Counted from the first letter of the stretch, positions 6,520 through 35,669 are shown. The stretch is DNA of 35,874 bases from an uncultured Mollicutes bacterium (GCA_945923475.1 CAMELE010000001.1:1-35874), one strand, 5' to 3'. Numbers and translations are program-made. Notes: generated by a model from the sequence alone, not told the origin.

Positions 6520-6595
6520 TGGGGTGACTGGCGGACTTCGAATCCGCGACATTCTGAGCCACAATCAGACGCTCTACCAACTGAGCTACAGCCAC
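6520..6595 (-). tRNA. tRNA-His (anticodon GTG), C73 + CCA encoded
   Basis: Acceptor GTGGCTG/CAGTCAC, D-arm GCTC-AGTTGGTA-GAGC, anticodon stem TCTGA/TCAGA with loop TTGTGGC, T-arm GCGGA-TTCGAAG-TCCGC. Confidence 0.8.
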
Positions 6596-6596
6596 A

Positions 6597-6684
6597 TGGT
6601 GCTTTTGATGAGACTCGAACTCATATGAACTTTACGTCCACTAGATTCTTAGTCTAGCATGTATACCAATTCCATCACAAAAGC
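6597..6684 (-). tRNA. class II tRNA-Leu (anticodon read as AAG; A34 is unusual), CCA encoded, abuts tRNA-His
   Basis: Acceptor GCTTTTG/CAAAAGC (perfect). Anticodon stem CTAGA/TCTAG with loop CTAAGAA. 16-nt variable arm. T-arm ATGAG-TTCGAGT-CTCAT. Confidence 0.6.
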
Positions 6685-6736
6685 ATTTTCTTATTTTTTA
6701 TATATTTATTATACAATATTTTTTTTATAAAGTCAA

Positions 6737-6780
6737 AAGGGGCCGATGTAAAGTATATTTACTTTACATCGGCCGTCGCG
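6737..6780 (-). terminator. rho-independent terminator hairpin for the AAA+ gene upstream
   Basis: GGCCGATGTAAAGTA-TATT-TACTTTACATCGGCC perfect inverted repeat, followed (minus-strand reading) by a T-rich run and the promoter cassette at ~6690-6735. Confidence 0.6.
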
Positions 6781-7920: not shown

Positions 7921-7947
7921 ACTTAATCCTCTTAATTTAAAATTTAA

Positions 7948-8035
7948 TGGCGGAGCCACCGCGAGTCGAACGCGGACTACCTATAAAGGTAGGAAAGCTT
8001 AGCAGGCTTTTGTGATACCATTACACCATAGCTCC
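7948..8035 (-). tRNA. tRNA-Ser (anticodon GCT), class II, G73 + CCA encoded
   Basis: Acceptor GGAGCTA/TGGCTCC. Anticodon stem AAAGC/GCTTT with loop CTGCTAA. Long variable arm CCTACC...GGTAG. T-arm CCGCG-TTCGACT-CGCGG. Confidence 0.8.
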
Positions 8036-8039
8036 ATTA

Positions 8040-8273
8040 TTTACACCTATATATGATTAGTTTATGCTTAATACTATATCCACAATAACTATGCTAAGTG
8101 CGATAATTACTAAAAATATAATACTTTCTATCGGATTTAATATTACCAAATAAATTTAAAACTCTCAATCCCTGTTTATAATGAGAAGTTTTATTATTTA
8201 CTTGATAATTAGCCCAATCAAGAATTTCTTGACCGCTAAAACAAGGATTTTTATAACTTAAAATATTTTTCAT
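8040..8273 (-). CDS. small hypothetical protein: 77 aa if the internal TAG is read as sense, 58 aa if TAG terminates
   Basis: GGAGG RBS then ATG at 8273. One in-frame TAG. The extended frame ends TAA next to tRNA-Ser. Confidence 0.4.
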
Positions 8274-8682
8274 ATTCTACCTCCTCTGCTTTTCTGGACT
8301 TGGAACCAGCCTATGGTAGCATTAGGTAGGCGACCGCACTTATCGTTCGCTAGGACAAAATTCACGCTCATCGCCAAAAATCAAATCATCAACATCTTTA
8401 AACATATCAGACAATCCTCCTTTTTTATTTAATTTTATGAAACAAAATAGAGAGTAGAAAAACAATTCATTTCTATGGAAGTGAGAGAAAACAACAATCT
8501 ATATATCAAACGAAAGGGGAAATCAAACAGAAAGATAAGTAAGAAAATGAACTAGATGTAAAAGACTCTCTCTATTGTATAGTCTTTTATTTCTATATAT
8601 TTAAATATATAGAAGAGTAGCCTTTCTAACAGGCATTCCAACAGCCTCGAGCAGCAAAGAGGTTCCTCATTTGTTGGTCTTT

Positions 8683-8758
8683 TGGTGGGCGGAGACAGAA
8701 TCGAACTGCCGACGCTAGGATCTTCAATCCTACGCTCTACCAGCTGAGCTATCCGCCC
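8683..8758 (-). tRNA. tRNA-Phe (anticodon GAA), CCA encoded
   Basis: Acceptor GGGCGGA/TCCGCCC (perfect), D-arm GCTC-AGCTGGTA-GAGC, anticodon stem TAGGA/TCCTA with loop TTGAAGA, T-arm GGCAG-TTCGATT-CTGTC. Confidence 0.85.
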
Positions 8759-8972
8759 ATAATATTTATATTGCTACGATTCCCGATTCTCCACGTAGTC
8801 ATTCTTCCTTTAAAATTTACTAAAAGAATGTGATATTTTATTTATCGTCCTACATCAACAATATAAATAGAACAAGACGCTATAAACAATCCTAAGCATA
8901 TGTATTTCGTACATTGATGTTTTAAAGTTTGCTGTTAGCGCCTTAATTATTCAAAAAGAAAGGAAAGATAAA

Positions 8973-9176
8973 TTATGCGTTTGCGGGTTCCGCGTTCTTC
9001 GGTCTGCGGAACTTTACATAACGCTCACCATCATGTCGGGACATCCAAATGATTGTGCCATCCTTAAAATGGAAATCATAAGTAAAATCCTTATCCTGTT
9101 CATCAATCTGATGGCAAAAGCCCTTACCGTACTTCTTAGAATAAACCTTGTCGCCGGGCTTAAATTTAAACTTCAT
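8973..9176 (-). CDS. hypothetical protein (67 aa)
   Basis: ORF track. Confidence 0.5.
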   Translation of the reverse strand: MKFKFKPGDKVYSKKYGKGFCHQIDEQDKDFTYDFHFKDGTIIWMSRHDGERYVKFRRPKNAEPANA

Positions 9177-9221
9177 TTAGATATCTCCTTTTGGATTATT
9201 TTAATTTACAAGACACAAATG

Positions 9222-9294
9222 AAATATTTGTTGGAATTGAACCAACTACAGTTTGTTTAACAGACAAATGCTCTACCAAATGAGCTAAAATATT
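9222..9294 (-). tRNA. tRNA-Asn (anticodon GTT) with an unusually AT-rich acceptor stem
   Basis: Acceptor AATATTT/AAATATT, D-arm GCTC-ATTTGGTA-GAGC, anticodon stem TTTGT/ACAAA with loop CTGTTAA, T-arm GTTGG-TTCAATT-CCAAC. Confidence 0.7.
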
Positions 9295-9370
9295 TTCAAT
9301 AGAAAATGATTGCTGTGTGTGTCTTTATTACTGTGATACCTCTTATTAAGAGGGCTTACGGCGTTACGCC

Positions 9371-10012
9371 TTAAATATATTTCCAGATATAACCATAAGC
9401 AGATTTTCGTTTACCATTCGCGCATTCTGCTATATGACTTCTAACTCCAGAACTATAATTTAAACATTTTTTATTTTTATAACACCACTATCCAGCTTCA
9501 GCTACTGATTCAAATGAATTAAGTAAATCTCCATTTTTATCATATTGTTTAATTGCTTTAGATTTTTCTTTTCTTAAATTTTCATTCGCTCGATTAATTA
9601 TCTAAATACAATTTTCTTTTGCTATTGAATAAACTAAATCTAGACTACAATGAAATAGTTCAGCTATTTCTATTGGACGAGGATTTATTTTTAATGCTTT
9701 TAAAATTTCTTTATGGTCATAAATTAATTTGCCATCGCCACCTTTAGTAGCATTATATCCATTCTAATAAGCATTTAATTTTTCAATCCAATAAATTTCT
9801 CTTTCTTCTGGATCGTCAGTCTCTTCAATTAGCTCAATATGAAAATGTTCTACTCCATATTTTCGCATTGCCGAATATAATGGACGTTTTTCATTGCGCT
9901 CTCTAAAAGCATCTTTACAATGTTCTTTAAAACGCTTCTCAATAAAAAACTCAGTTTTTCCAATATAAATTTTCTAATTTACATCATTGATAATTTTATA
10001 AATATATGCCAT
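9371..10012 (-). CDS. GIY-YIG homing endonuclease, 213 aa, with five in-frame TAG codons
   Basis: Minus-strand translation MAYIYKIINDVN*KIYIGKTEFFIEKRFKEHC...YWIEKLNAY*NGYNATKGGDG.... 642 nt, an exact multiple of 3, ends TAA. Invisible in the standard-code ORF track. Confidence 0.8.
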
Positions 10013-10146
10013 ATTCTTATCATCCTCCATTATTTTATGGAGTTTTTGGTTGCTAAATTATCTAAACGCAACCAAAATTTTAGTCCCACCGTTAGTTTAA
10101 ACAGAGCATACCATCGTGAAGGTGTGTGGTGACATTTTATGCTCCT

Positions 10147-10215
10147 TGCGGTCGGGCGATTCGAACGCCGTTTTTAGCTTATGAGGCTAACGAGCTACCT
10201 TTGCTCCACCACCGC
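10147..10215 (-). tRNA. tRNA-Met-like (anticodon CAT); short, 4-bp T-stem
   Basis: D-arm GAGC-AAAGGTA-GCTC, anticodon stem TTAGC/GCTAA with loop CTCATAA, T-arm GGCG-TTCGAAT-CGCC, acceptor GCGGTGG/CGACCGC with one mismatch. Confidence 0.55.
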
Positions 10216-10217
10216 AA

Positions 10218-10293
10218 TGGTCGGTCAAATTAGAATCGAACTAATATCCCTTGTCTTATGAGAACAATACTCTACCAATTAAGCTATTGACCG
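10218..10293 (-). tRNA. tRNA-Met (anticodon CAT; could be elongator Met or a lysidine-type Ile2), CCA encoded
   Basis: Acceptor CGGTCAA/TTGACCG (perfect), anticodon stem TTGTT/GACAA with loop CTCATAA, T-arm ATTAG-TTCGATT-CTAAT. Confidence 0.75.
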
Positions 10294-10455
10294 AAAATGG
10301 GATAGATATAATATTCGCGACCATTATATCTATTGGACTTTCTAACCCATCGTCCCAAAATTCTTAATAGACCTCATCAAATGGCCAACTTTTGTAGAGG
10401 CTTTTGTGCGACTCTGCATGCGCACTCACATAGACATAAGAATGATGCCAACGTA

Positions 10456-10533
10456 TGGCGACCCAGGCGGGGCTCGAACCCGCGGTCTTAGCCGTGACAG
10501 GGCTACGTGATATTCCAGCTTCACTACTGGGCC
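10456..10533 (-). tRNA. tRNA-Asp (anticodon GTC), G73 + CCA encoded
   Basis: Acceptor GGCCCAG/CTGGGTC, anticodon stem TAGCC/GGCTA with loop CTGTCAC, T-arm GCGGG-TTCGAGC-CCCGC. Confidence 0.8.
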
Positions 10534-10536
10534 ATA

Positions 10537-10614
10537 TGGTACTCCTGGTGGGATTCGAACCCAACGACTCTAGCGTGAAAGGCTAGTGACTTAAGCCCAC
10601 TTGTCGACAGGAGC
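10537..10614 (-). tRNA. tRNA-Glu (anticodon TTC), CCA encoded
   Basis: Acceptor GCTCCTG/CAGGAGT, anticodon stem CTAGC/GCTAG with loop CTTTCAC, T-arm TTGGG-TTCGAAT-CCCAC. Enlarged D-loop. Confidence 0.7.
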
Positions 10615-10684
10615 ATATTATTTATTTTATTCTACATTAGTAAAAACAGGATATACCACGTGAAGGTTGTAGAATTTATATCCC

Positions 10685-10758
10685 TGACCTCAGCCAGATT
10701 CGAACTGACATCTCAACCTTGAGAGGGTTGCCACCTAAGCCAATTAGTAGATGAGGCC
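10685..10758 (-). tRNA. tRNA-Glu (anticodon CTC); atypical D-arm
   Basis: Acceptor GGCCTCA/TGAGGTC, anticodon stem CAACC/GGTTG with loop CTCTCAA, T-arm GTCAG-TTCGAAT-CTGGC, A73. Confidence 0.6.
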
Positions 10759-10762
10759 ATAT

Positions 10763-10903
10763 TTAAGCACATCTATCATAATCTTGATTTTTGTGCTTTT
10801 GTTTTCGCTTAAACGAACCTTTACCTTTCTTCGCAGGAACTTTAAATCCTCTGCGCCGAAATAATTGAAGATATTCATTAAGCTCTTCCTTGTTTTTTTT
10901 CAT
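10763..10903 (-). CDS. small basic protein (46 aa, Lys/Arg-rich)
   Basis: ATG directly after the stop of the acidic peptide ORF. Sequence MKKNKEELNEYLQLFRRRGFKVPAKKGKGSFKRKQKHK.... The longer track ORF 10763..11011 overlaps the acidic peptide in another frame. Confidence 0.4.
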   Translation of the reverse strand: MKKNKEELNEYLQLFRRRGFKVPAKKGKGSFKRKQKHKNQDYDRCA

Positions 10904-10907
10904 ATAA

Positions 10908-11018
10908 CTTTTATTCACGGTATTCATCCTCATCTTCATAAAGGGAAAGATCCTGATAAGCAGCATATTCATCACTTTGAATCTCGCAAGCATAGCTTTC
11001 ATAGTAATCATTATACAT
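10908..11018 (-). CDS. small acidic peptide (36 aa, Tyr/Glu/Asp-rich)
   Basis: Lies immediately after the promoter/leader cassette at 11022-11090, ...GAAAGGAAGATTTAAATT then ATG. Sequence MYNDYYESYACEIQSDEYAAYQDLSLYEDEDEYRE. Confidence 0.4.
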
Positions 11019-11198
11019 AATTTAAATCTTCCTTTCTTAACTTTCTATAAATATTATAACTTATTTTTTATAAAATGTCAAAAGATTAAAAGACCAACCA
11101 AGAAGCGATATTTGTTAACGATGGTCGCCACTCCACCGCCGTCAATACTCATAAATGCTTATCATTTTCACATTAACCTACTAATTAAAGGAGGTGAC

Positions 11199-11286
11199 TG
11201 GTGCTTCGAGAGAGACTTGAACTCTCACCATCCATTCGGATAATCGGGTTTGAGCCGATCGCGTCTGCCAATTCCGCCATCAAAGC
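11199..11286 (-). tRNA. tRNA-Leu (anticodon CAA), class II, CCA encoded
   Basis: Acceptor GCTTTGA/TCGAAGC, anticodon stem ATCGG/CCGAT with loop CTCAAAC, long variable arm, T-arm GAGAG-TTCAAGT-CTCTC. Confidence 0.75.
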
Positions 11287-11289
11287 ATA

Positions 11290-11390
11290 ACTAAGAGGAT
11301 TTTTAAGAAGAATCCTCAAAACTTCTTTCTAATCTAATGGAAGTTTTAAGAAGATCTTCCAACTTCTTTCTAATCTTAATCGCACTTTAG
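11290..11390. repeat. tandem duplication of a ~48-bp unit, each unit a hairpin followed by AACTTCTTTCTAATCT
   Basis: Hairpin 1 GAGGATT-TTTAAGAAG-AATCCTC. Hairpin 2 GGAAG-TTTTAAGAAGAT-CTTCC. Confidence 0.6.
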
Positions 11391-11837
11391 GGCGGCCGTC
11401 CCTCCGCGGCGTCACGGTAAATATAATATAATTTTTTATCCAAAAAAAGGTTATGAGCCAAAAAGGGATAATTATTTAAGACATAATTATCAAGACTACG
11501 CTACTTTTCAAATTTTCTCTTCTTAGTGGGAAAAACTTTCTTAGCGCTGAAACCAAAATCACTATTAGCATTTTGTATATATTATCTTATTGTATATAAG
11601 TTTTATTAATATACCTTATCTATTATATCGTTTAGTATATTGTATTAAGTTTTAATTAATAAGATAATATTTCTGGCTGCTTTTATCACCAATCATATAA
11701 TCGGTTATATCAGGCAATGCTCCTAAACTTGCGGTTTATTCAACCGCCGTGCTTACTCTTTACACCATATAACCATTTCTATTCACTATTAGCGTTACCC
11801 ATCATCTACCTCGTGGCGGTTATGAATTTTAGATGAC

Positions 11838-11913
11838 TGGACCTCGTGAGAATCGAACTCACCTGATTTTCTGTGTGCAAGACAGACGACCACGCCATGC
11901 AGTCCCGAAGCCC
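11838..11913 (-). tRNA. tRNA-Ala (anticodon TGC)
   Basis: Acceptor GGGCTTC/GAGGTCC (G-U wobbles), D-stem GACT/GGTC, anticodon stem TCTGT/ACAGA with loop CTTGCAC, T-arm GTGAG-TTCGATT-CTCAC, A73. Confidence 0.65.
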
Positions 11914-11988
11914 GAAATGCGACTTATTTATGTATAGATGGAGTCGCCAACCACCATTTGAGTTTTACCAGATATCCCGAGGAGGGAT

Positions 11989-12064
11989 TGGTGCTGGAGA
12001 AAGGACTCGAACCTTCAGATTAATGATCCTAAATCATTCGCCTATGCCAATTCGGCTACACCAG
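11989..12064 (-). tRNA. tRNA with anticodon TAG (formally Leu) but a short class-I variable arm; CCA encoded
   Basis: Acceptor GCTGGTG/CTCCAGC (one mismatch), anticodon stem AATGA/TCATT with loop TTTAGGA, T-arm GAAGG-TTCGAGT-CCTTT. Confidence 0.55.
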
Positions 12065-12135
12065 CAAATAAAGAATTTTATAACCCACATCGCGAAGATT
12101 CGAACTTCGTCAATCGTTAGGACTCGAACCAACTT
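12065..12135 (-). tRNA. tRNA-like element with two tandem T-arm-like hairpins (CGAAG-TTCGAAT-CTTCG and GTTGG-TTCGAGT-CCTAA); no canonical cloverleaf found
   Basis: Hand folding failed to find matching acceptor or anticodon arms. Confidence 0.25.
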
Positions 12136-12305
12136 TTACTCTTCTGGATTCCCAGAACCCATGGCCTTGATTAATGTGAGTATAGCCACTATTTCACAAT
12201 AAGTTTTACTTCGCTTCCTTATATTTAGTCGGGCGTTTTCCGCAAGCCACATACTCTTTCGATCGGTGGTAGTTTAAACTTACAAAATCCGTGTTAACGC
12301 CCCAA

Positions 12306-12380
12306 TGGCGGGTGATGTAGGAATTGAACCTACCTAAGGCAGATTAACAGTCTGCTGCCTAACCACTAGGCTAATCACCC
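12306..12380 (-). tRNA. tRNA-Asn (anticodon GTT), second copy, CCA encoded
   Basis: Acceptor GGGTGAT/ATCACCC (perfect), D-arm GCCT-AGTGGTT-AGGC, anticodon stem GCAGA/TCTGC with loop CTGTTAA, T-arm TAGG-TTCAATT-CCTA. Confidence 0.8.
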
Positions 12381-12532
12381 ATAAAAGAAGGACTTTTTAA
12401 AATCCTTACTTTATATATTTATTATATTATATTTTTTTTAAAAAATCAACTTTTCTCTTTTACCCAAGTTTTTTATTTTCTTTTTTCTTTCTTCGTCTTA
12501 TATAAATATTATATAATATTTTTTATAAAATG

Positions 12533-12715
12533 TCAATAAGGTCTTTGAATTGGCATTAAATCATCTTCTGAAAGAAGCCACTTTTCACCATGTTCATCAA
12601 GGACTTCAATCTGATAATTTAATACTCGAATGACAGTGCATTTAAGATACTGTCTACGATAACAACGGCCGCGATAAGGGACAAAACAATAAGAATTACC
12701 AACTTCAATATTCAT
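12533..12715 (-). CDS. hypothetical protein (60 aa)
   Basis: ORF track. Promoter/leader cassettes on both sides. Confidence 0.5.
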   Translation of the reverse strand: MNIEVGNSYCFVPYRGRCYRRQYLKCTVIRVLNYQIEVLDEHGEKWLLSEDDLMPIQRPY

Positions 12716-12805
12716 TATTTATTTTCTCCTTTCTCAACTTTCTATATATATTATATTATATATTTTTAATAAAATCAAAAAAGTTCTTTTTGTTTAAGTA
12801 GATTA

Positions 12806-12890
12806 AATGGCACCAGGGGTACGAGTCGAACGCATTACCACGAGATTTGGAGTCACGCCCCAGTCCCTCCGGGATTAAGGTTCCCCTGAT
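12806..12890 (-). tRNA. tRNA-like element (~83 nt): acceptor ATCAGGG/CCCTGGT + G + CCA and D-arm plausible; anticodon arm unresolved
   Basis: T-arm-like TGCG-TTCGACT-CGTA. No clean 5-7-5 anticodon stem-loop. Confidence 0.3.
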
Positions 12891-12912
12891 ATAAAAACAA
12901 GACCTTAACTTT

Positions 12913-12983
12913 GTCCGGAAAATGGATTTGAACCATTAACTTAATCTTGAAGGATTATGACCTAACCTTTAGTCTATTCTGGA
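12913..12983 (-). tRNA. tRNA-like element with a 6-nt anticodon loop (CTTCAA; would read UCA if a 7th nucleotide is recruited); possibly a pseudogene
   Basis: Acceptor TCCAGAA/TTCCGGA (one A-C mismatch), D-arm GACT-AAAGGTTA-GGTC, stem TAATC/GATTA, T-arm AATGG-TTCAAAT-CCATT. Confidence 0.3.
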
Positions 12984-13379: not shown

Positions 13380-14810
13380 TTAACTAAAATTATGTATAAA
13401 GTCTTTTAAAGACCTAAAATTATTAACTTTTTCTTCATCAGCATCTCTAAAACACCAAGGACACAAATACATATCAGTTCCTTTATGATAGTGAATATCC
13501 TCTGTATAATATAAATTATTACAACATTCGCATCGTTTACAATAAGTATCCGCACAACTATCGCAAACTAATTCATTCTCATCGCCTACGGAATTTGCTT
13601 CATCAAGGATTATACGAGAACCGCAACAAGCACAATAACCATAATTATCGTCTTCGTTTACTCCATAATTGAATTCACAGTCTCCACATCGCATATATTC
13701 TCCACTTTCGATAATAGTTTTACCGCATTGTAAACAAGGGACATCACCGCCAATAGACCAATGAGGAAGATCAGTCTCTAATGGATAATAATACAATTTT
13801 AAACTATAAATGGGTAAATAGCAAGAAGAATAAAGCAAATCATTATATTGAAGAGTATGCTCGCCAATATCTTCAACAATATCACCAATAGGATATAAAC
13901 GAGATAAAATAGGAATCCATGTCTCGGATAATCCAATAGTTTCTTCGTCAAAAGAAGTAGTGCTCATCCTATTAGAAACAGTATTAATACCTCCATCTAC
14001 CCATTCACGCAACTGAAAAGTCTTATCAAAAGTATTGATAATATCTTTAATTTTAATTAAAGCATTGGTTGTCATAAAAGGATATTGACGACCAGCCATT
14101 AAACCGCGTCGCTTATCTTCCATATAAAGAAGCATACGCCATTTCTTAGAATTCCAAAGAACATCTTCGGGGAAATGCGGAAGTTTCTGATTCTCTGCTC
14201 CGCGCAAATAGCAAATAAAAGTGCTTCTATCTACCATGTAAGACAAATTTCCTGCTCTATATTCGCCGTCAAGTGCATGGCAAGAGCGCCAATTATAAGT
14301 ATTTTCACTTACGCTTAAAAAATCCAAAGGATGAACTGAGAAACATAATGTTCCCTCGATCTTGTCCTCTTGGATAATACGACTTGCGTAATTCTGAATA
14401 TCTTCCAAAGAGCGTGGATTCTCTTCGAAATACTTAAAAGCCTTAACTAATTTCATTCCTCTTGGAATCTTTTTATCCTTATAAAAATAAGTATCTATAA
14501 CTGTATTGTTAAAGAATCCTTCTTTATTTACTGTAATAAAATCCTTTAAGTCTTCATTATTATAAGTATAATTAATTGTTTCAAGAAACTCTTCAAGACG
14601 ATGCTCTTTAGTTTTATCATCTAAGGAAAAAGATACCTTTTCCGGCCATTCATAAATTAAATGACCGTGAAAAAATTTAATTAAGTCTTTTTTGGCTTCG
14701 AGGAATCTTTCGAATAGTTCTTCTGTTTTTGGATTACTGATTCCTTGGGAGTAACTGATGACTTTGTTGAACTGTTTTCTAATGCTTTCGATGTCGAAGT
14801 CATATGACAT
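13380..14810 (-). CDS. large Cys-rich protein, paralog A (about 476 aa): conserved central domain plus C-terminal multi-CxxC zinc-ribbon region
   Basis: Shares GTLCFSVHPLDFLSVSEN...W.SC...GEYRAG...WNSKKWR with the 17318..18922 product, and a C-terminal CLQCG...CGDC...CACCG...CDSC...CKRCECC...CPWC. Start taken at MSYDFD by homology; the track ORF starts at 14831. Confidence 0.65.
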   Translation of the reverse strand: MSYDFDIESIRKQFNKVISYSQGISNPKTEELFERFLEAKKDLIKFFHGHLIYEWPEKVSFSLDDKTKEHRLEEFLETINYTYNNEDLKDFITVNKEGFFNNTVIDTYFYKDKKIPRGMKLVKAFKYFEENPRSLEDIQNYASRIIQEDKIEGTLCFSVHPLDFLSVSENTYNWRSCHALDGEYRAGNLSYMVDRSTFICYLRGAENQKLPHFPEDVLWNSKKWRMLLYMEDKRRGLMAGRQYPFMTTNALIKIKDIINTFDKTFQLREWVDGGINTVSNRMSTTSFDEETIGLSETWIPILSRLYPIGDIVEDIGEHTLQYNDLLYSSCYLPIYSLKLYYYPLETDLPHWSIGGDVPCLQCGKTIIESGEYMRCGDCEFNYGVNEDDNYGYCACCGSRIILDEANSVGDENELVCDSCADTYCKRCECCNNLYYTEDIHYHKGTDMYLCPWCFRDADEEKVNNFRSLKDFIHNFS

Positions 14811-15787
14811 TTGACTAATCCTCCAATACAATCTTTACAATACTCGCTGTGTGGGTTCGCAGGGTCAATCTCAAATGCCTCTTCACACTCCGCACACCAT
14901 TCAACATTACTGGGAATACAATCAGGACAATAAAAACATGTATGTCCATCTAATCCTTTTACTGGAAATGTTTCATATTCACTAAATAACTGACCGCATC
15001 CTCTACAATGAACGTAGAATCCATCGCCATCAGTTGGAAAATTCTTACAAATATTATCGAACCAAATACTATGATAATTACGATAATATTCAAAATTAGG
15101 AATATCTTTCTCTTTGAGCATGCGGATTACCTTATTAATCGTATCAAAAAGAGCACCCGCATTTAATGTTTCAATACGGTTATGTTCATTTTTATAACCT
15201 ACTGAAAGATTCACGCCACAAATTTTCCATTCAGGACATAAAACACTAATATCACTAAACGTGCCAAAATCCTCTACAAATCCAAAAGATTCAATGTAAT
15301 CAATGAATTTAGGATTGTAAAGATCATAAAACACACAATCATTTGTGCCTTGTCTATCCAACTGAATAATGTATTTCAGATTGGGAAATGGACACTCAAA
15401 ATATTGTAATACTAATGCTTCGGCGCCCAATCCACCAATTTCTTCATCAGTGGTAAAAATAATAGAAGGGCGCAAAGATGTATTTCTCAAAATATGAAGA
15501 ATCGCATATACTCCTGCTCTATCATCTGCGCCAAGACCATCGGGCGACCAAAGCACATTTTTTCTTGTATCATAATATAAATCTTTGACCGGTTTCTCAA
15601 ACACAGTATCAAGATGAGCCACTAAAGCAATCGGAATATCGCCAACCGCACAAACATACTCTTTAGTAATAACTACTTCAGTATATTTAGCTTTCAATAC
15701 ATCGGCAACATATTCTCTTAACTCATCTTGCGTCGAGCGAACCAGATATTCAAATAACCAAAGTTCATTAGTTTTAAAACCTCTCAC
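14681..15787 (-). CDS. M42/M28-family metallopeptidase-like protein with C-terminal zinc-ribbon extension (368 aa)
   Basis: Metal-ligand motifs AHLDTV, GADDRAG and TTDEEIGGLGA (compare M42 HMDEIG / DDR.G / QEEVGLRGA). C-terminal CRGCG...CFYCPDC...CAECE...CKDC. Its 3' end overlaps the next gene by ~130 nt. Confidence 0.7.
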   Translation of the reverse strand: MRGFKTNELWLFEYLVRSTQDELREYVADVLKAKYTEVVITKEYVCAVGDIPIALVAHLDTVFEKPVKDLYYDTRKNVLWSPDGLGADDRAGVYAILHILRNTSLRPSIIFTTDEEIGGLGAEALVLQYFECPFPNLKYIIQLDRQGTNDCVFYDLYNPKFIDYIESFGFVEDFGTFSDISVLCPEWKICGVNLSVGYKNEHNRIETLNAGALFDTINKVIRMLKEKDIPNFEYYRNYHSIWFDNICKNFPTDGDGFYVHCRGCGQLFSEYETFPVKGLDGHTCFYCPDCIPSNVEWCAECEEAFEIDPANPHSEYCKDCIGGLVKCHMTSTSKALENSSTKSSVTPKESVIQKQKNYSKDSSKPKKT

Positions 15788-17317: not shown

Positions 17318-18922
17318 TTAAAAAATCAAAGAAGGTCTTTGATTTGGGTTGGTGCCAATAGCCCAAGAAATAAATTCCTTTTCACTAATATTAAAGAGGT
17401 CTCTGCCCTTTTTAGTGAGAGTTTCTCCATCGACATAATAATTAGAGCGCCAACCATCTCTATCTTCTTCAATTTCACCATTGAAGAAGGTTTTTACTTT
17501 TTTATCCTCACAGCAATCCCAACAAATATCTGTATAGAACCCAACTGGCTTCTTCTGGAATCGAAGGCGGATTTGCTTCATGTCATCATAGTCTTTGCGG
17601 ACTCCGCAACAAGGACAAACTTCTGTGTTTTCGTCATAACAATAAGCGCAGTAAGTTCTTCCATCGACATTGTAAGTGTCATCGACATAAACAATATCAC
17701 CACACTTATCGCACTTTACTGCACCCGAACAACTTGTGCAAATGGTCATTTCTGCGTTATTCTCTCTATCATCGAGGAGAGAATCATCAAGAAGCTCTCC
17801 GCAACACATACACTCAGATTCACCCGAGTAGTTAAGATCAACGCTTTTGTCCGTAGGAATTTTAGTGGAAACGTAAGCATTATGCTCTGAGTAGATATCA
17901 TTATACATGAAATTGGTATCAAGATTGAAATAAATATTTCTGTCAAGCTCGCCAATAATGTTATTACTGTAATTATGAATCTGATTTAAATACTTGGTAT
18001 AAGGGCCAAAACCAAGATTCTGCTCAGCAAGTTTTTTAATCCAAGCAAGACAAATACTTTCAAGATTTTCATTACAATAAGGATAACCCTTAATGCCAAG
18101 GATAAGGCTTTCATCTACGATGAAAAGTTCGCGCCAACGTTTACTATTCCACATTACAGGCTTACCAGCCTTATACCAAAGTTCCATATCCTTATCAGAT
18201 TTAAGGTAAGCTTCGAGGATAATGGGAGAATTCATCATCTCAACGGTTCCCTGACGGTATTCACCACCGCCATTCTGCCATCTCATACAAGAATCCCAAC
18301 CGCAATCATTATCACTCATAGTGATATAGTCAAGAGGATGAATAGAAAGACAGAGTTCACCAGAGATATTTTTCTGATTAAGGAACTGAGAATGAGCGAT
18401 ACGGAACTTTTCATAGATATCGCGGTCAATCTCCAAGATATCACTCATCTTACCAAGCATCTTACTAAGCTTCATACCCTTATTAATCATAAGAGTTTTA
18501 TTGTTATAAGTGAATTTAAAAGATTCCCCATCATAAATGTTAGACATTAAAGGCTCAACATCCAAAAGATTTACCAGATTAAAATACTGAGTATTAGAGA
18601 TGTCTGTTTTAAGATAAAGATCTCTTACCTTATTATTAAAGGTATTTCGGAATTCATATCCATCACCATTTCTGCCGAAATAATCATAAAAATCATCACT
18701 CATATCTTCATAAGTGCGAGAATAACTTACCTTACGAGAAATGATAAGATTATCTCCCAACATTTTATAAAGACTCTGCTTATTATAGGCCCAAAAACGG
18801 AGGATGTAGTCGAGAGATGCCTTCATATCGGAACTATCTCCACCGAGGCCCGCAAAATTACGGATATACCATTCAATCTTTTCGCAATCTTCTTTGGAAA
18901 GGAGTTCAAATAAATTAGCCAT
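17318..18922 (-). CDS. large Cys-rich protein, paralog B (534 aa)
   Basis: GELCLSIHPLDYITMSDN...WDSC...GEYRQG...WNSKRWR core. C-terminal CMCCG...CTSCSGAVKCDKCG...CAYC...CPCCG...CWDCC. Confidence 0.75.
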   Translation of the reverse strand: MANLFELLSKEDCEKIEWYIRNFAGLGGDSSDMKASLDYILRFWAYNKQSLYKMLGDNLIISRKVSYSRTYEDMSDDFYDYFGRNGDGYEFRNTFNNKVRDLYLKTDISNTQYFNLVNLLDVEPLMSNIYDGESFKFTYNNKTLMINKGMKLSKMLGKMSDILEIDRDIYEKFRIAHSQFLNQKNISGELCLSIHPLDYITMSDNDCGWDSCMRWQNGGGEYRQGTVEMMNSPIILEAYLKSDKDMELWYKAGKPVMWNSKRWRELFIVDESLILGIKGYPYCNENLESICLAWIKKLAEQNLGFGPYTKYLNQIHNYSNNIIGELDRNIYFNLDTNFMYNDIYSEHNAYVSTKIPTDKSVDLNYSGESECMCCGELLDDSLLDDRENNAEMTICTSCSGAVKCDKCGDIVYVDDTYNVDGRTYCAYCYDENTEVCPCCGVRKDYDDMKQIRLRFQKKPVGFYTDICWDCCEDKKVKTFFNGEIEEDRDGWRSNYYVDGETLTKKGRDLFNISEKEFISWAIGTNPNQRPSLIF

Positions 18923-18939
18923 ATCTTATCAACCTCTTT

Positions 18940-28263: not shown

Positions 28264-29163
28264 TCACTCCTTTTGTAAATATTTATTACCAAGTAATAAG
28301 TCTAAAGTAATGTTATCACGTTCCCAATAAGGGATCCTTACTAAAGAAATATTATGAGATAAAGCATAATCATTTTTTATTTTATCTCGTTTTTGTGTAG
28401 CTTCTAATTCTCCCCAAGTAGGAACTTCCATAAAATGTTGTTCTCCGTCAAATTCAATTAATCTATTATAATCAGGTAAATAAAAGTCATATCTTAAATT
28501 ACCTAAATTTTTATATTTATATTCTTTAATATAAGTAATATTATTTTCAGATAAAATATTACTTATATGGTATTCTCCAAGAGACGTTTTTAAACAACCA
28601 CAAGAAATTTTTCTTCCACTTAATAAAGATTTACTTGAAGTATCACATTCATTACCACAATCACATCGACAATGCCAAATAATACGGTTATTTTTTCTTT
28701 CAGGTTGTTCAAATAATACAGTTAATTTACCAAAACGCTAACCAATTAAATCTTTTTTAGTTAAATTAGCTACCATTTCTTTATGTAAACACCCACAAGA
28801 CTATGTATTTCCAGTGGTTAAATCGTTAGTTGCATAATAAACAATATTACCACATTCGCATTGGCATTCCCAAATAATACGGTTATCTTTTCTTTTACCA
28901 GAATCTTTAATAACAGTTAAACGTCCAAATTTTTGGCCTACTAAATCTTTTTTGGTATTATTACTTGCTACTTCTTTCCTATAACAACCGCAAGATTTAG
29001 TGCTACCATTTCTTAACCTATTTAAACTAATACTTTTTATATTACCACAATCACACTAACATTTCCAATAAGTAGAACTATGTGTTTTAGTTTTTTCTAC
29101 ATCTATTTCTAAAGCAGTTAGACGTCCAAATTTCTAACCACTTATATCCTTATATTTTCCCAT
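28264..29163 (-). CDS. HNH-type homing endonuclease-like protein: three tandem zinc-finger modules (G-Q-[KR]-F-G-[RK]-L-T ... W-x-C-x-C-x-C-G-N ... S-C-G-C) plus a C-terminal PD-(D/E)XK-like (Vsr/DUF559-like) domain; 299 aa with four in-frame TAG codons
   Basis: Minus-strand translation MGKYKDISG*KFGRLTAL...YWKC*CDCGN...; second module DLVGQKFGRLTVI...IIWECQCECGN uses CAA at the same positions; third DLIG*RFGKLTVL...IIWHCRCDCGN. C-terminal YDFYLPDYNRLIEFDGEQHF. 900 nt, an exact multiple of 3, ends TGA. Confidence 0.75.
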
Positions 29164-31390: not shown

Positions 31391-32119
31391 TTAGTCGATA
31401 TTATTTCGATTTTTTGACGGAATTAGATCGTCAATAGTTAAATCTTCATATTGTAAATATGAGATACGAATTAATGGTATATTATGTTCTTTGCACCATT
31501 TATTTTTATATTCGTCTCTATCCTAAATTTTTTTAATGTCTTCTCCCCATCCTCCATCTGGTTCTGTATGTTGACGGCCATCATATTCTATAAGATATTT
31601 ATTATCAACATAAAAATCAAACCGCAAAGGATAGTTAGTTTCAGGATTACGACAATCTTTAAATTTTTTTTCCATTTCAAAAGGGATATTATTCTCAGTT
31701 AATAATTGAGAAATTTTTAATTCTCCAATTGAAATTTTTAAACATCCACAAGAATTTACTTTATGAGTTCGTAATTCATAAGGTCTTACGTAGACAATGT
31801 TTCCGCAATCACACTAACACTATATTTTATAAGTGCCACTTGGTGATCTATGATTAAAGTCTCTTTTTATTGCGGTTAATTTACCGAAGCGATGACCTAT
31901 AATATCATCACTTTTATGACGATTCATTCGTTCTTCTTGAATTAAACATCCGCAAGACTTACATCCGCCCGAAGTTAAAAGATTTGTATAAGCGAAATGC
32001 TCTTTACCACAATCACAACGGCATTTCCAAACAATATTACCATGTTTACGTTCAGAAGTTTCTTCTATAACAGTTAGCTTTCCAAAACGCTAACCAATTA
32101 AATTTTGTTTTTTTGCCAT
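31391..32119 (-). CDS. HNH-type homing endonuclease-like protein (paralog of 28264..29163; two zinc-finger modules plus a PD-(D/E)XK-like C-terminus), 242 aa with four in-frame TAG codons
   Basis: MAKKQNLIG*RFGKLTVI...VWKCRCDCGK...CKSCGC...IIGHRFGKLTAI...KI*C*CDCGN...NSCGCL...RFDFYVDNKYLIEYDGRQH...KKI*DRDEYK. 729 nt, an exact multiple of 3, ends TAA. Confidence 0.75.
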
Positions 32120-32193
32120 AAATAAAATCTCCTTTTACAAGTTTTTGCGACTCCCCTTAATATTAAGGAAATTTTATTTATATTTTATGAAAC

Positions 32194-33448: not shown

Positions 33449-33846
33449 TTTTTATCACCTTTAATAGTTTTTCTTTATTTTATATTTATATTATATATTA
33501 AAATTTAATAAAAATCAATAAATGTTTTTTGAATTAAATAAAAAATAAACCGCGCTTGGGCAAACATATTAAATGTAATTAAAATAGGTAAAAATTGTAG
33601 GCAATTTTTCATAGTCGCCTATGTGGATATTAGAGATCGCTATGCTTAGGACAGAAGGAATATTAGACGGGAAAACCGCGTTAGTTAAAATTGTAGAAAA
33701 TTTTTACCATTTTGTATTAAAATGTAAGACAAATTATTACTTTTAGAAAAATATTTAAAAATTTGTGGGCAAACGCAATTAAAAGTATTAAAAAAATTTT
33801 TATTTATTATAGAACAATTAAAAAGAAAAGGAGGAGGACTTATAAA

Positions 33847-34404
33847 TTGACTAAAAAGGAATTGATAACTTTTTTCCACGACAAATACTATTATAAGAAA
33901 GGTAGTATGAGAGCGGTTAAAGATATTGAATAGATTGCTGAAAAGGAACATTATCAAGTTATAAAAAATAGTCCTGATAATTATGATTTATATGAAACAG
34001 GAGCGGTATTAGATTTTACTAAACCTATTAAAATAAATAGAGAGATCCCGCCTTTGGCTTCACATAAAGCATATAATGGAGTTCCGCTTTATTTATTTAC
34101 ATACACATTCGCTTATTATATTAACTTTGAGTTATGGTGTTATGTAATGAATAAAAAGAATGGAGATTATATTCATTTCAATGATATTTTAAATACAGAT
34201 ATTTAGTATTGTAAAGATATAGAAGATATTGTATTTAATTTTGACTTATTAGTTCATCATGGATACCTAAGAGAGCGTAAAGATTGTCTCGAATTTTATG
34301 CTTATCCGATTAAAGATGGAATTCAACTTCCATTAGATTATATTTTTCAATCGGAAGATAATAAAAAAGTATCAAGATTGGCTCCATTTAAATATTTAGA
34401 ATAA
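33847..34404 (+). CDS. hypothetical protein (185 aa) with two in-frame TAG codons; first gene of the plus-strand block
   Basis: AAAAGGAGGAGGA RBS, then TTG 8 nt later (an in-frame ATG at 33907 is an alternative). Open through two TAGs to TAA at 34402-34404. No standard-code ORF exists here. Confidence 0.5.
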
Positions 34405-34433: not shown

Positions 34434-34610
34434 ATGCCAAATGCTAATAAAATTATATATTCATTAAGAATATATTTAGAATTAGAAAAGAAAGGAATAT
34501 ATCCAATAACAACAACCGCAAATCCGCGGAAGCCTAACTTTATGTGTTGGATATATGAAAAGACTCCGGAGTTAGTTTAGGCTCTGGATGAATTAATGGG
34601 CAAGAAATAA
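34434..34610 (+). CDS. small DUF5659-like protein (58 aa) with one in-frame TAG
   Basis: AAAGGAG RBS. MPNANKIIYSLRIYLELEKKGIYPI...NFMCWIYEKTPELV*ALDELMGKK. The family assignment is from memory of the motif. Confidence 0.45.
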
Positions 34611-35041
34611 TGAGCCTATTTAAGATTCATAAAGAAGTTTTATAGAGTGGTAATTTTACTTCAATAAACACTCCTACGTTGGGTTAGGCTACTGGGAGTT
34701 TAACATTGAATGGTTTAAGATTATATTTATATTTAGCTGGTAATACTAATAATTTTGTTTGGACTATGAATCCGACCGCCTATGCCAATTGGTTAGGAAA
34801 AGATTATTCAAAGGCGAGTGAAGCAAGGGCAGTCCGCAAGGCTATTGATGCTGGCATAAATGATTTAAAGAATAATAACTATTTAGTCGAAACCGCGGAA
34901 GGAAAATATGATTTTTATGATAATTGTAATGATTTTCCGGAACAAAAAGTTCCGAAAGGATAGGTTGTTATTCAAAAATAGACAATTAGTAATAGTAAAG
35001 TGGAACAAAAAGTTCCGAAAGAAGACAAATTTGAGTTTTAA
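34610..35041 (+). CDS. putative replication-initiator / replisome-organizer-like protein (winged-helix N-terminal domain); 143 aa if the three in-frame TAGs are read through, or ending at 34963 if the third TAG terminates
   Basis: ATG overlaps the preceding stop as TAATG. LNGLRLYLYLAGNTNNFVWTM...LGKDYSKASEARAVRKAIDAGINDL resembles DnaD / phage replisome-organizer wHTH domains. Track ORF 34706..34963 is the TAG-free core. The iteron cluster lies at its 3' end. Confidence 0.5.
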
Positions 35042-35176
35042 CATTAAATTCGGAACCGTTAGTTCCATTCATTTAAAATGTGATGAATTATTAGGGACTG
35101 CGGAACCGTTAGTTCCAAAATGCCCCTTATGTTTGGAACCGTTAGTTCCGAATTGCCTATATTTTCGGAACAAAAA
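34939..35176. promoter_or_regulatory. cluster of six 15-bp palindromes GGAAC-N5-GTTCC (three with AAAAA spacer, three with CGTTA spacer): iteron- or operator-like, putative replication origin
   Basis: GGAACAAAAAGTTCC at ~34939, 35005 and 35162. GGAACCGTTAGTTCC at ~35055, 35103 and 35136. Confidence 0.6.
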
Positions 35177-35180
35177 GTTC

Positions 35181-35222
35181 CTATTAATATATATATAATA
35201 GATAATATTTAATATATATCGG
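35181..35222. other. AT-rich tract directly after the iterons, candidate DNA-unwinding element
   Basis: attaatatatatataatagataatatttaatatatatc, essentially 100% A+T. Confidence 0.4.
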
Positions 35223-35265
35223 CTGGGTAATTCAGGGGCAGTAATGAGAGTAAAAGGAGTAAAAT

Positions 35266-35502
35266 ATGAGTTATAGTTATGAAGAAATAAGAGGCGGAAA
35301 AGGCAATCCTTCAATAGTAAGATTTGTAAGAGGAACGCAAGAACAGTTTGATAAGATGATAGATAAAACAAATATGATAAAGCCTGATCTATATATGAAA
35401 GATAATACTATTTATTTTGTTGTTCCAGACGATACAAAACCAGTAAAGGTAGCATTTGATAATGATAGATCTGAGTCAATAGAAGAAAATCCATTTCTTT
35501 AG
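35266..35502 (+). CDS. hypothetical protein (78 aa)
   Basis: ORF track. AAAAGGAG RBS. Confidence 0.55.
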   Translation: MSYSYEEIRGGKGNPSIVRFVRGTQEQFDKMIDKTNMIKPDLYMKDNTIYFVVPDDTKPVKVAFDNDRSESIEENPFL

Positions 35503-35669
35503 GAATTCATTTGATTTATAATAAATAATATATTATAATATAAATAATAAAAGAAAGAAATATAATTTTGAAGTGAAAACCGGGGTAGGTTATTTCTGTG
35601 TAAAGCAGGGGTATTTATTCCGGGGAACGATTCAAAAAATGAAATGAAAGTAAGGATTTGAAAACTGAA

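What the first reader, a model, noticed from the sequence alone, without database searches (positions are those of the whole stretch)
34610..35225. Putative replication origin: initiator-like wHTH gene followed by six GGAAC-N5-GTTCC palindromes and an AT-rich tract
- The 34610.. ORF has a DnaD / replisome-organizer-like winged-helix signature (LRLYLYLAGNTNNF...RAVRKAIDAGI).
- At and beyond its 3' end lie three copies of GGAACAAAAAGTTCC and three of GGAACCGTTAGTTCC within 240 bp, followed by a ~40-bp pure A+T stretch.
- This is the classic initiator-iteron-DUE arrangement.
- Whether the third in-frame TAG (34961) is read through matters. Readthrough would make the protein C-terminus literally encoded by the iterons (repeating EQKVPK). 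Termination there would mean TAG still stops translation in this gene.
Basis: partly seen in the sequence, partly recalled or inferred. Interest (0 to 1): 0.65.

Follow-up and report, generated by a model that had tools for sequence, protein, structure and literature searches.

The report
Initiator-like protein with self-encoded binding sites
A small DNA-binding protein of an uncultured gut phage that reads TAG as glutamine sits next to six copies of a perfect 15-bp palindrome; the array starts inside the protein's own gene and ends at a TA-rich tract, which most likely marks a lambda-style replication origin, although this is not proven.

Summary
Six perfect GGAAC-N5-GTTCC palindromes lie at 34939-35181, against 0.44 expected even with one mismatch allowed. 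A 38-nt TA-rich tract follows directly.

TAG is read as glutamine here, so the gene runs 34610-35041 (143 aa) and the first two palindromes are translated as EQKVP.

Relatives keep this design: a winged-helix domain, a disordered tail built from the sites, a C-terminal aromatic tip (FxF), then an array ending at TATTAATATATA. Three findings show that the DNA motif is what is conserved and that the adjacent protein binds it:
- Inside relatives' ORFs the palindrome is read in two frames (EQxVP and GTNCS).
- The arms change with the protein lineage (GGAAC, ACGAC, TGAY).
- The tail peptides change with them.

Best reading is a lambda O/ori-lambda-like origin module (about 0.5). The main rival is an operator array on an activator- or repressor-controlled promoter (about 0.25). 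Three points weaken the origin reading:
- The AT tract is not unique: at least 15 comparable promoter tracts exist in the window.
- The GC-skew flip is local.
- No replication genes are adjacent.

The parts
33848..34404 (+). Gene 1 of the plus-strand island (185 aa, TTG start after the RBS AAAGGAGGAGGA, 2 in-frame TAG). Function unknown.
   Evidence: Syntenic homologues occur in L008, L004 and L005. No Pfam or PHROG hit.
34434..34610 (+). Gene 2 (58 aa, in-frame TAG at 34578). Its TAA stop overlaps the ATG of the winged-helix gene (TAATG). It lies immediately upstream in most relatives examined (not in L017).
   Evidence: Synteny: the called genes of 58-69 aa directly upstream in L002-L007 and L012-L016. 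No family hit.
34610..35041 (+). Winged-helix (initiator-like) gene, 143 aa with TAG read as Gln. In-frame TAGs at 34643, 34685, 34961 and 34976; stop TAA at 35039-35041.
   Evidence: 249 representatives at E<=1e-3.
34610..34924 (+). Winged-helix domain (residues 1-105).
34925..35038 (+). Disordered tail (residues 106-143) holding two EQKVP repeats that are the translated palindromes, ending in the conserved aromatic tip KFEF.
   Evidence: pLDDT 24-62. The tip (G/x)FxF is conserved across the family.
34939..34953 (.). Palindrome 1, GGAACAAAAAGTTCC, inside the ORF (read as EQKVP).
35002..35016 (.). Palindrome 2, GGAACAAAAAGTTCC, inside the ORF (read as EQKVP).
35052..35066 (.). Palindrome 3, GGAACCGTTAGTTCC, 11 nt after the stop. 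A site at +9 to +11 is present in most relatives.
35102..35116 (.). Palindrome 4, GGAACCGTTAGTTCC.
35135..35149 (.). Palindrome 5, GGAACCGTTAGTTCC.
35167..35181 (.). Palindrome 6, GGAACAAAAAGTTCC. It lies 32 bp after palindrome 5 (31-33 bp in most relatives examined; 22 bp in L013) and is fused to the TA-rich module.
35182..35219. TA-rich tract (37 of 38 A/T). Its first 12 nt, TATTAATATATA, are invariant in the GGAAC-type loci aligned (L013 differs). Candidate unwinding element or -10 region (TATAAT at 35194-35199, TTTAAT at 35208-35213, no -35).
35266..35502 (+). Gene 4 (78 aa), the first gene downstream of the array. This position is occupied by dissimilar genes in relatives.
35511..35539 (+). 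Canonical phage promoter (TTGATT-N17-TATAAT) for gene 5, which starts at 35670 and runs off the window.

Best explanation
The locus is most likely a phage replication-origin module of the lambda O/ori-lambda type, built around a minimal initiator.

Proposed mechanism:
1. The 143-aa protein is made only once TAG is decoded as Gln, because codon 12 is TAG.
2. It binds as a dimer through its winged-helix domain to each 15-bp dyad GGAAC-N5-GTTCC. The half-sites lie one helical turn apart.
3. Six dimers (6-13 in relatives) occupy an array that begins in the 3' tail of the protein's own gene and ends against a conserved TA-rich element.
4. The nucleoprotein complex destabilises the TA-rich tract.
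5. The conserved C-terminal aromatic tip (FxF), tethered by the disordered linker, recruits a helicase, loader or other replisome partner.
6. The tail peptide (EQKVP repeats) is largely a by-product of the sites being laid into the reading frame.

Shown here: the sites, their conservation, the selection acting at DNA level, the covariation of site with protein, the fold, and the TAG read-through.

Inferred: dimer binding, unwinding, partner recruitment, and the replication function itself.
For: 1. The site cluster is far beyond chance and unique within 35.9 kb.

2. The same architecture recurs in eight independent relatives at 33-97% protein identity. There are 6-13 sites running from the ORF tail into the intergenic region. 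The last site abuts TATTAATATATA or a close variant (CACTAATATATA in L013, CACTATAAATATATA in L016). The spacing mode is 32 bp, with Rayleigh p about 0.01 at a 10.5-bp period.

3. Selection acts on the DNA:
- Synonymous positions and the preceding third-codon base (G) are invariant in the perfect in-ORF copies.
- In-ORF sites occur in two frames in L012 and L013: 18 read as EQxVP and 3 as GTNCS.

4. The arms covary with the adjacent protein while the geometry is kept. They are GGAAC in the window clade, GGAAC/GTTAC in L014, ACGAC/GTCGT in L015 and TGAY/RTCA in L016. The tail peptides change accordingly (EQKVT, DxLS).

5. The domain is of the initiator type:
- Relatives found with the window family's profile (E 6e-12 to 1e-4) score above the HTH_36 cut-off and sub-threshold to DnaD_N and Phage_rep_O.
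- They match the PHROGs 'replication initiation protein', 'replication initiation O-like' and 'DnaD-like helicase loader' at 1e-6 to 1e-11.
- 7 of 46 short family members also hit phrog_186 and 5 hit phrog_270.

6. There is a precedent. The lambdoid ori lies in the middle of gene O and consists of iterons plus an AT-rich tract. Two extra iterons there add 13 residues to the O protein (PMC7466680).

7. Relatives carry a separate small RHH or HTH_3-like regulator at the head of the operon, as rep-control operons do.
Against: - The AT tract is not distinctive. At least 15 equally AT-rich tracts in the window are conserved sigma-70-type promoters. The right half of this tract resembles their -10 region.
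- In L009 and L012 the AT element is only 12 nt and lies between two sites, which is short for an unwinding element.
- The GC-skew flip is confined to the 2.5-kb plus-strand island and reverts after it.
- The island and the neighbours scanned contain no recognisable helicase, primase, loader or polymerase. The only weak hints are PNK/dNMPase-like and pol-exo-like matches on the right flank of L006.
- The gene carries four in-frame TAGs, so it cannot be an immediate-early function.
- L004 and L005 carry an extra site just upstream of the operon's first RBS, which shows the protein probably also regulates transcription.
Confidence: 0.5

Rival explanations
1. Operator array on a regulated promoter. 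The winged-helix protein is a transcription factor. The last palindrome overlaps or replaces the -35 region of a promoter whose -10 lies in the TA-rich tract, driving gene 4. The upstream sites give cooperative repression or activation, and the C-terminal tip contacts RNA polymerase.
For: - The tract contains TATAAT (35194-35199). The segment TAGATAATATTTAATATATATCG matches 19 of 23 positions of the phage's own promoter -10 consensus, but lacks the TTGAYW -35 that all 15 other promoters have. That is what an activator-dependent or operator-occluded promoter would look like.
- No other promoter precedes gene 4 in the window.
- In L009 and L012 the 12-nt AT element is sandwiched between two sites, a classic operator/-10/operator layout.
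- L004 and L005 have one more site just upstream of the first RBS of the operon, suggesting autoregulation.
- Winged-helix domains are common in regulators: TrmB and MarR_2 sub-threshold hits, and one PHROG 'transcriptional regulator' hit.
Against: - Six to thirteen sites spread over 250-400 bp and reaching into the regulator's own ORF is unusual for one promoter.
- No site stands at any of the other 15 promoters in 36 kb.
- The downstream gene is not conserved among relatives, whereas the array and the AT module are.
- In L009 the next gene has its own perfect TTGAAA-N17-TGgTATAAT promoter about 150 nt further on.
- Relatives already carry a dedicated RHH or HTH_3 regulator in the operon.
Confidence: 0.25
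2. Centromere-like or other DNA-organising site. The array nucleates a protein-DNA complex, as ParR does on parC or omega on its heptads. The complex would serve genome segregation or positioning, packaging recognition, or act as a decoy against host factors.
For: - Arrays of 6-13 closely spaced cognate sites next to the gene of a small DNA-binding protein, with lineage-specific specificity, also typify type II/Ib centromeres (established knowledge).
- The spacing mode of about three helical turns suits a wrapped or filament-like complex.
Against: - No ParA- or ParM-type ATPase and no terminase in the island or its neighbours.
- The fold is a winged helix of the initiator type, not RHH or ParB.
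- The conserved TA-rich element at one end of the array has no role in such systems.
Confidence: 0.1
3. The repeats are selected at the protein level, as an EQKVPK short linear motif, and the DNA palindromes are incidental. Alternatively, they act as RNA hairpins or weak terminators.
For: - EQKVP is repeated in the tails of many homologues.
- The simple scan flags three of the palindromes as terminator-like.
Against: - Four of the six copies lie outside the ORF.
- In-ORF copies occur in two reading frames, giving unrelated peptides (EQxVP and GTNCS).
- The residue encoded by the spacer is free (K, I, F, N, T) while the arms are fixed.
- The spacer orientation flips (AAAAA/TTTTT, AAATT/AATTT), which a strand-specific RNA element would not tolerate.
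- The arms never show compensatory pair changes. They switch in concert in all copies of a lineage.
- The stems are only 5 bp.
Confidence: 0.02
4. The sites are bound by a host factor, for example LexA (the Gram-positive Cheo box GAAC-N4-GTTC), rather than by the adjacent phage protein.
For: The half-site GAAC/GTTC resembles the Gram-positive SOS box. This rests on my own knowledge and was not tested.
Against: - The spacing is N5 in all six copies and in all relatives, not N4.
- The arms covary with the adjacent phage protein across lineages.
Confidence: 0.03

Closest known systems
Bacteriophage lambda O protein and ori-lambda (lambdoid phages; Pfam Phage_rep_O)
   Same: - An N-terminal winged-helix DNA-binding domain.
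- Several dyad-symmetric initiator sites lying inside the initiator's own coding sequence, in a linker-coding segment.
- An AT-rich tract directly after the last site.
- The number of sites varies between relatives and changes the protein length (PMC7466680).
- Site specificity diverges with the initiator.
   Different: - The protein has 143 aa and no folded C-terminal (P-binding) domain, only a disordered tail with an aromatic tip.
- The sites are 15-bp 5-5-5 palindromes.
- The array starts at the 3' end of the gene and mostly lies beyond the stop codon.
- There is no Pfam match to Phage_rep_O for the window protein, and only sub-threshold matches in distant relatives.
- Replication function is untested.
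Firmicute phage replisome organisers and DnaD-like initiators (for example SPP1 G38P with oriL inside gene 38; PHROG 186, 270, 678)
   Same: - A winged-helix N-terminal domain of the same superfamily.
- PHROG matches for family members.
- An origin within or next to the initiator gene (established knowledge).
   Different: - There is no DnaB_2/DnaD C-terminal domain.
- The protein is much shorter.
- The window protein itself matches none of these profiles.
Iteron-plasmid Rep proteins (RepA of pPS10, RepE, pi, RepA_N) and RctB domain 1
   Same: - Dimers bind inverted repeats for autoregulation, as the extra operon-proximal site in L004 and L005 would allow.
- Cognate repeats lie adjacent to an AT-rich element.
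   Different: - There is a single winged helix, not two.
- All sites are dyads. No direct-repeat iterons for monomers are present.
Phage or plasmid repressor with multiple operators (for example ParR on parC or omega on heptads flanking a promoter)
   Same: - An array of cognate sites next to the gene.
- One end of the array overlaps a -10-like AT element.
- Autoregulation is likely.
   Different: - The fold is an initiator-type winged helix, not RHH.
- No partner ATPase is present.
- The sites reach into the coding sequence.

Membership tests
Lambdoid O / ori-lambda system (Pfam PF04492 Phage_rep_O) | N-terminal domain matches Phage_rep_O at or above the gathering score | tested here: not met
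   The window protein has no Pfam hit at E<=1. Distant relatives score 18.6-20.5 bits against a cut-off of 28.7.
Lambdoid O / ori-lambda system (Pfam PF04492 Phage_rep_O) | Multiple dyad-symmetric initiator sites inside the initiator's own ORF | tested here: met
   Palindromes at 34939 and 35002 lie within the 34610-35041 ORF under TAG=Gln.
Lambdoid O / ori-lambda system (Pfam PF04492 Phage_rep_O) | AT-rich tract directly flanking the last site | tested here: met
   35182-35219 is 37/38 A/T and abuts palindrome 6. Comparable tracts are common in the window.
Lambdoid O / ori-lambda system (Pfam PF04492 Phage_rep_O) | Folded C-terminal domain that recruits the helicase loader | tested here: not met
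   Residues 106-143 are disordered (pLDDT 24-62) and match no domain.
Lambdoid O / ori-lambda system (Pfam PF04492 Phage_rep_O) | Supports origin-dependent replication | not testable with these tools
   Needs an ori-cloning assay or marker-frequency analysis.
DnaD / phage replisome organiser (PF21984 DnaD_N, PF09681, C-terminal DnaB_2) | DnaD_N-type winged helix | tested here: inconclusive
   [not shown]
DnaD / phage replisome organiser (PF21984 DnaD_N, PF09681, C-terminal DnaB_2) | C-terminal DnaB_2/DnaD domain | tested here: not met
   No such domain is present. The tail is disordered.
HTH_36 winged-helix family (PF13730) | Match above the gathering score | tested here: inconclusive
   The window protein has no hit. 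Among ten long relatives reached with its family profile, eight score 25.3-38.7 bits and two score 20.9-22.1 bits, against a cut-off of 25. The link is therefore transitive.
HTH_36 winged-helix family (PF13730) | Winged helix-turn-helix fold | tested here: met
   [not shown]
Iteron-plasmid Rep (Rep_3 type) | Two tandem winged-helix domains and directly repeated asymmetric iterons | tested here: not met
   There is a single winged helix. All six sites are perfect dyads.
Repressor/operator at a promoter | Site overlaps a recognisable -35/-10 promoter | tested here: inconclusive
   -10-like hexamers lie at 35194 and 35208, but there is no TTGAYW -35 of the kind found at the phage's 15 other promoters.
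Repressor/operator at a promoter | Sites at other regulated promoters of the genome | tested here: not met
   No other perfect site occurs in 35.9 kb. L004 and L005 have one extra site upstream of the operon's first gene.
Gram-positive LexA (Cheo) box | GAAC-N4-GTTC spacing | tested here: not met
   All copies are GAAC-N5-GTTC.

The most novel reading that the evidence does not exclude
This may be a previously undescribed family of minimal phage initiators: about 120-190 aa, with one winged helix, a disordered linker and a C-terminal aromatic FxF tip. The linker would be literally written by the protein's own origin sites, in whichever frame they fall. Gain and loss of sites would then tune both origin strength and tether length. 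The tip would recruit the host or phage replisome directly, with no loader-binding domain. Lineage-specific arm changes (GGAAC, ACGAC, TGAY) would define replicon specificity groups among uncultured, partly TAG-recoded gut phages.
Probability: 0.3. Interest if true: 0.7.

Novelty: new variant of a known kind. Interest (0 to 1): 0.5.

Why it matters
If this is an origin, it gives a concrete, testable origin and initiator for a clade of uncultured 180-190-kb phages that decode TAG as Gln, for which no replication mechanism is known.

It also offers a clean natural example of a binding-site array invading a coding sequence. The same 15-bp DNA motif is read in two frames, and the protein tail evolves as a by-product of the DNA sites.

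The covarying site-protein pairs form a ready-made set for studying winged-helix specificity.

Finally, it settles the local question of whether TAG is read through in this gene. It is.

Tried and rejected
Searches that found nothing or little:
- Direct Pfam and PHROG scans of the window protein and its four neighbours found nothing useful.
- blastn of the locus and tblastn of the protein against cultured phages and plasmids gave no match.
- A profile search of PDB sequences gave no match.
- Rfam found only tRNAs.
- Foldseek against BFVD returned only unnamed 'HTH domain' phage proteins.

Methods that failed or were too broad:
- The first AlphaFold run, on 8 sequences, was poor (pLDDT 57.6). 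It was redone with 46 sequences.
- The search for related loci with the deep alignment failed. With the shallow one it found a single viral contig.
- A broad two-site pattern scan of viral contigs returned mostly unrelated repeats, for example in giant viruses. Only L095 was a true relative.

Ideas tested and dropped:
- DnaA boxes are not enriched: 15 found against 12 expected.
- GC skew as an origin marker is rejected, because the flip is confined to the plus-strand island.
- The peptide-motif and RNA-hairpin readings are rejected by the two-frame and extragenic copies.
- The strong hairpin after the AT tract in relatives is absent from the window.
- L017, at 25% identity and in a prophage-like context, has no array, so the architecture does not extend to the most distant hits.

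Full report
**1. The observation**

The window holds six perfect copies of GGAAC-N5-GTTCC. They lie at 34939, 35002 and 35167 (spacer AAAAA) and at 35052, 35102 and 35135 (spacer CGTTA). All fall within 243 bp, and there is no other perfect copy in 35.9 kb. With one mismatch allowed there are 8 matches against 0.44 expected, and none of 100 shuffles reaches 8.

Palindrome 6 is followed directly by TATTAATATATATATAATAGATAATATTTAATATATAT at 35182-35219, which is 37 of 38 A/T with one G at 35201.

**2. The genetic code and the gene**

The window is part of a large phage genome with 21 tRNA genes, one of which has anticodon CUA (1206-1295). Many ORFs are only continuous if TAG is sense. TAG stands for Gln on three lines of evidence:
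- The window's L-G-TAG-A aligns with LGQA in ten of the eleven homologues. In L005, a relative whose gene has no TAG at all, that Q is a CAA codon.
- A CAG in window gene 4 is TAG in L006 and L011.
- One protein carries both GQKFGRLT and G-TAG-KFGRLT repeats.

The gene therefore runs from the ATG at 34610 to the TAA at 35039-35041, giving 143 aa. The start overlaps the TAA of a conserved 58-aa upstream ORF (TAATG). In-frame TAGs lie at 34643, 34685, 34961 and 34976.

It is. All full-length homologues, including the TAG-free one, continue through a second EQKVP to a conserved C-terminal aromatic tip such as KFEF, GFVF, EFVF, SFTF or DFIF.

**3. What is conserved: the DNA, not the peptide**

The protein belongs to an uncharacterised family with 249 representatives at E<=1e-3. 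I read the DNA of eight independent relatives at 33-97% protein identity: L001, L004, L005, L008, L009, L012, L013 and L095.

All show the same layout:
- 6-13 GGAAC-N5-GTTCC sites.
- The array starts in the 3' tail of the gene, with usually one site 9-11 nt after the stop.
- The last site is typically 31-33 bp after the penultimate one and is fused to TATTAATATATA, or to CACTAATATATA in L013.

EQKVP is simply G|GAA|CAA|AAA|GTT|CC. Several observations show that the DNA motif is the selected unit:
- In the perfect in-ORF copies every synonymous position is fixed.
- The third base of the preceding codon is always G, whatever the amino acid (P, V, S, L, M, W, K).
- The residue encoded by the spacer is free: K, I, F and N, and T in the L014 variant.
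- In L012 and L013 the in-ORF palindromes alternate between two reading frames, giving EQxVP and GTNCS. Overall 18 are in one frame and 3 in the other.

The predominance of one frame is explained by the need to keep the C-terminal tip in frame. Any duplication of a site must then be a multiple of 3 nt. This last point is an inference.

**4. The adjacent protein is the binder**

More distant family members keep the geometry and the layout but change the arms:
- GGAAC-AAAAA-GTTAC in L014.
- ACGAC-N5-GTCGT in L015.
- TGA(T/C)-N5-(G/A)TCA in L016.

The geometry kept is 4-5-nt arms, a 5-nt A/T-rich spacer, an array beginning in the ORF tail and, where the contig reaches that far, a TA-rich tract after the last site. 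The tail peptides change accordingly (EQKVT, DxLS) while the aromatic tip stays. Concerted change of all copies together with the neighbouring protein is the signature of a cognate protein-site pair.

Site spacing has a mode of 32 bp and is weakly phased with the helical repeat (Rayleigh p about 0.01 at 10.5 bp; the loci are not fully independent).

**5. What kind of protein**

The window protein gives no direct hit in Pfam or PHROGs, in PDB sequences, or in cultured phages and plasmids.

With a 46-sequence alignment AlphaFold gives a confident model. Residues 1-105 have pLDDT above 90 and form a winged helix. Residues 106-143 are disordered.

The scores are modest, as expected for a small domain.

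Profile evidence points the same way:
- Longer relatives reached by the family profile mostly match Pfam HTH_36 above threshold, and DnaD_N and Phage_rep_O below threshold.
- The same relatives match the PHROGs 'replication initiation protein', 'replication initiation O-like' and 'DnaD-like helicase loader' at 1e-6 to 1e-11.
- Among 46 short family members, 7, 5, 5 and 4 hit four of these replication PHROGs. Only one hits a 'transcriptional regulator' PHROG.

So 'initiator-like winged helix' is supported, but transitively.

**6. Context**

The gene is the third of five or six plus-strand genes forming an AT-rich island of about 2.5 kb. In the window the island runs from 33848 to beyond the end. 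It is complete in L006 and L011, and it sits between two minus-strand blocks.

The GC-skew reversal seen in the window (minimum near 32.5-33 kb) simply follows this island and reverts after it. It says nothing about replication.

None of the island's other genes has a recognisable function. Relatives start the operon with an RHH protein (L009, L014) or an HTH_3-like protein (L013). No helicase, primase or polymerase was recognised among the neighbours scanned. The right flank in L006 has only PNK/dNMPase-like hits and a weak pol-exo hit.

**7. The AT tract**

The tract is not special by composition. At least 15 equally AT-rich tracts occur in the window, and they turn out to be a highly conserved phage promoter. 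Its form is TTGAYW-N17-TATAAT-ATATATAGAAAGTTAAGAAAGGA, and it lies upstream of minus-strand genes and tRNAs. Gene 5 has one at 35511-35539.

The tract after palindrome 6 contains TATAAT at 35194. A stretch of it matches 19 of 23 positions of that consensus around a TTTAAT at 35208. It has no -35.

What is special is its invariant junction with the last palindrome in the relatives. In L009 and L012 the AT element is only 12 nt and is followed at once by another palindrome.

A strong hairpin (-16 to -26 kcal/mol) follows the tract in five relatives but not in the window.

**8. Interpretation**

The best-supported reading is a replication-origin module of the lambda O/ori-lambda kind. It combines an initiator-type winged helix, dyad sites laid into the initiator's own coding sequence, an AT/TA-rich element at the end of the array, a variable number of sites that changes the protein length, and lineage-specific specificity. 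All of these have precedents in lambdoid phages (PMC7466680).

The differences are substantial:
- The initiator is minimal, with no folded C-terminal domain, only a tether and an aromatic tip.
- The array lies at and beyond the 3' end of the gene.

I put this reading at about 0.5.

The main rival, at about 0.25, is an operator array controlling a promoter without a -35 in the TA tract. It is supported by the promoter-like -10 region, by the operator/-10/operator layout of L009 and L012, and by the extra operon-proximal site in L004 and L005. The two readings are not exclusive, because initiators commonly autoregulate.

A centromere-like role is possible but lacks partner genes. Peptide-motif, RNA-hairpin and host-LexA readings are contradicted by the data.

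The four in-frame TAGs mean the protein appears only after the code switch. The stop-codon-recoding preprint reports that recoding of replication genes varies between clades, so this is only mildly against an origin role (10.1101/2021.08.26.457843).

**9. Verdict**

The feature is real, strongly conserved and well defined. It is most likely a new variant of a known kind, an initiator with cognate sites and an AT element. Its notable twist is that the protein's tail is the translation of its own binding sites, in two frames. The function remains to be shown experimentally.

Noticed in passing
window 1206-1295 (-): The tRNA with anticodon CUA is 90 nt long and appears to have a long variable arm (class II-like; ARAGORN labels it 'Pyl'). 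Yet TAG aligns with Gln codons in homologues. It is not a simple derivative of the neighbouring 90-nt tRNA-Tyr(GUA) at 836-925 (about half of the aligned positions identical).
   Followed up: partly
window 836-12983 (-): An array of 21 tRNA genes is interspersed with homing-endonuclease-like genes that are rich in in-frame TAG. These include GIY-YIG-like ORFs at 1300-2079 and 9371-10057 and an HNH-like ORF at 3470-4060.
   Followed up: no
window, minus strand, near 3147, 4521, 6691, 12410, 12498, 12742, 13009, 17295, 18957, 21091, 21458, 24009, 25505, 26589, 29801: At least 15 copies of a conserved module of about 50 nt combine a promoter and a 5'UTR: TTGAYW-N17-TATAAT-ATATATAGAAAGTTAAGAAAGGA...ATG. 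It looks like a sigma-70-type promoter with a shared leader and RBS, upstream of both protein and tRNA genes.
   Followed up: partly
window 28264-29163 (-) and 31391-32134 (-): Two paralogous proteins are built from repeats of the form G-Q/TAG-(K/R)FG(R/K)LTV...W.C.CDCGN, plus a C-terminal region of unknown function. TAG falls repeatedly at the Q of the repeat.
   Followed up: no
window 13380-14834 (-) and 17318-18925 (-): Two large paralogous ORFs of 485 and 536 aa share a '...W(R/D)SC...' core and Cys-rich (CxxC) C-terminal regions. Neither contains an in-frame TAG.
   Followed up: no
L006 9940-10320 (the window ends about 350 bp before the equivalent place): Long tandem arrays of 9- and 10-mers (GTTAGAAAT, ATTGCGAGAA), with a scaffold gap, sit at the convergent end of the plus-strand island. 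L011 has only remnants (TRF finds no array there). This hypervariable microsatellite probably breaks assemblies at this point.
   Followed up: partly
L001 10600-10700; L006 9080-9220; L011 7320-7350: A GC-rich hairpin element, CTTCGGGCACAAGTGCCCTCGTTGATAAGGG, is inserted repeatedly, apparently in frame, in genes 4 and 5 of close relatives. It is absent from the window and looks like a miniature mobile palindromic element.
   Followed up: partly
L004 1806-1862, L005 1586-1640, L008 140-200 (-), L009 4820-4885 (-), L013 4548-4600: A strong hairpin with a 14-15-bp stem follows the TA-rich tract in relatives (-16 to -26 kcal/mol, z -3.3 to -6.9; UUCG-type loop in three of the five). Its sequence is not conserved. 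The window has no equivalent (-2.7 kcal/mol).
   Followed up: partly
L004 359-373 and L005 246-260: A single extra GGAAC-N5-GTTCC site lies about 25-45 nt upstream of the start of the first gene of the operon in two relatives. The window has no such site in the 33450-33848 region.
   Followed up: yes
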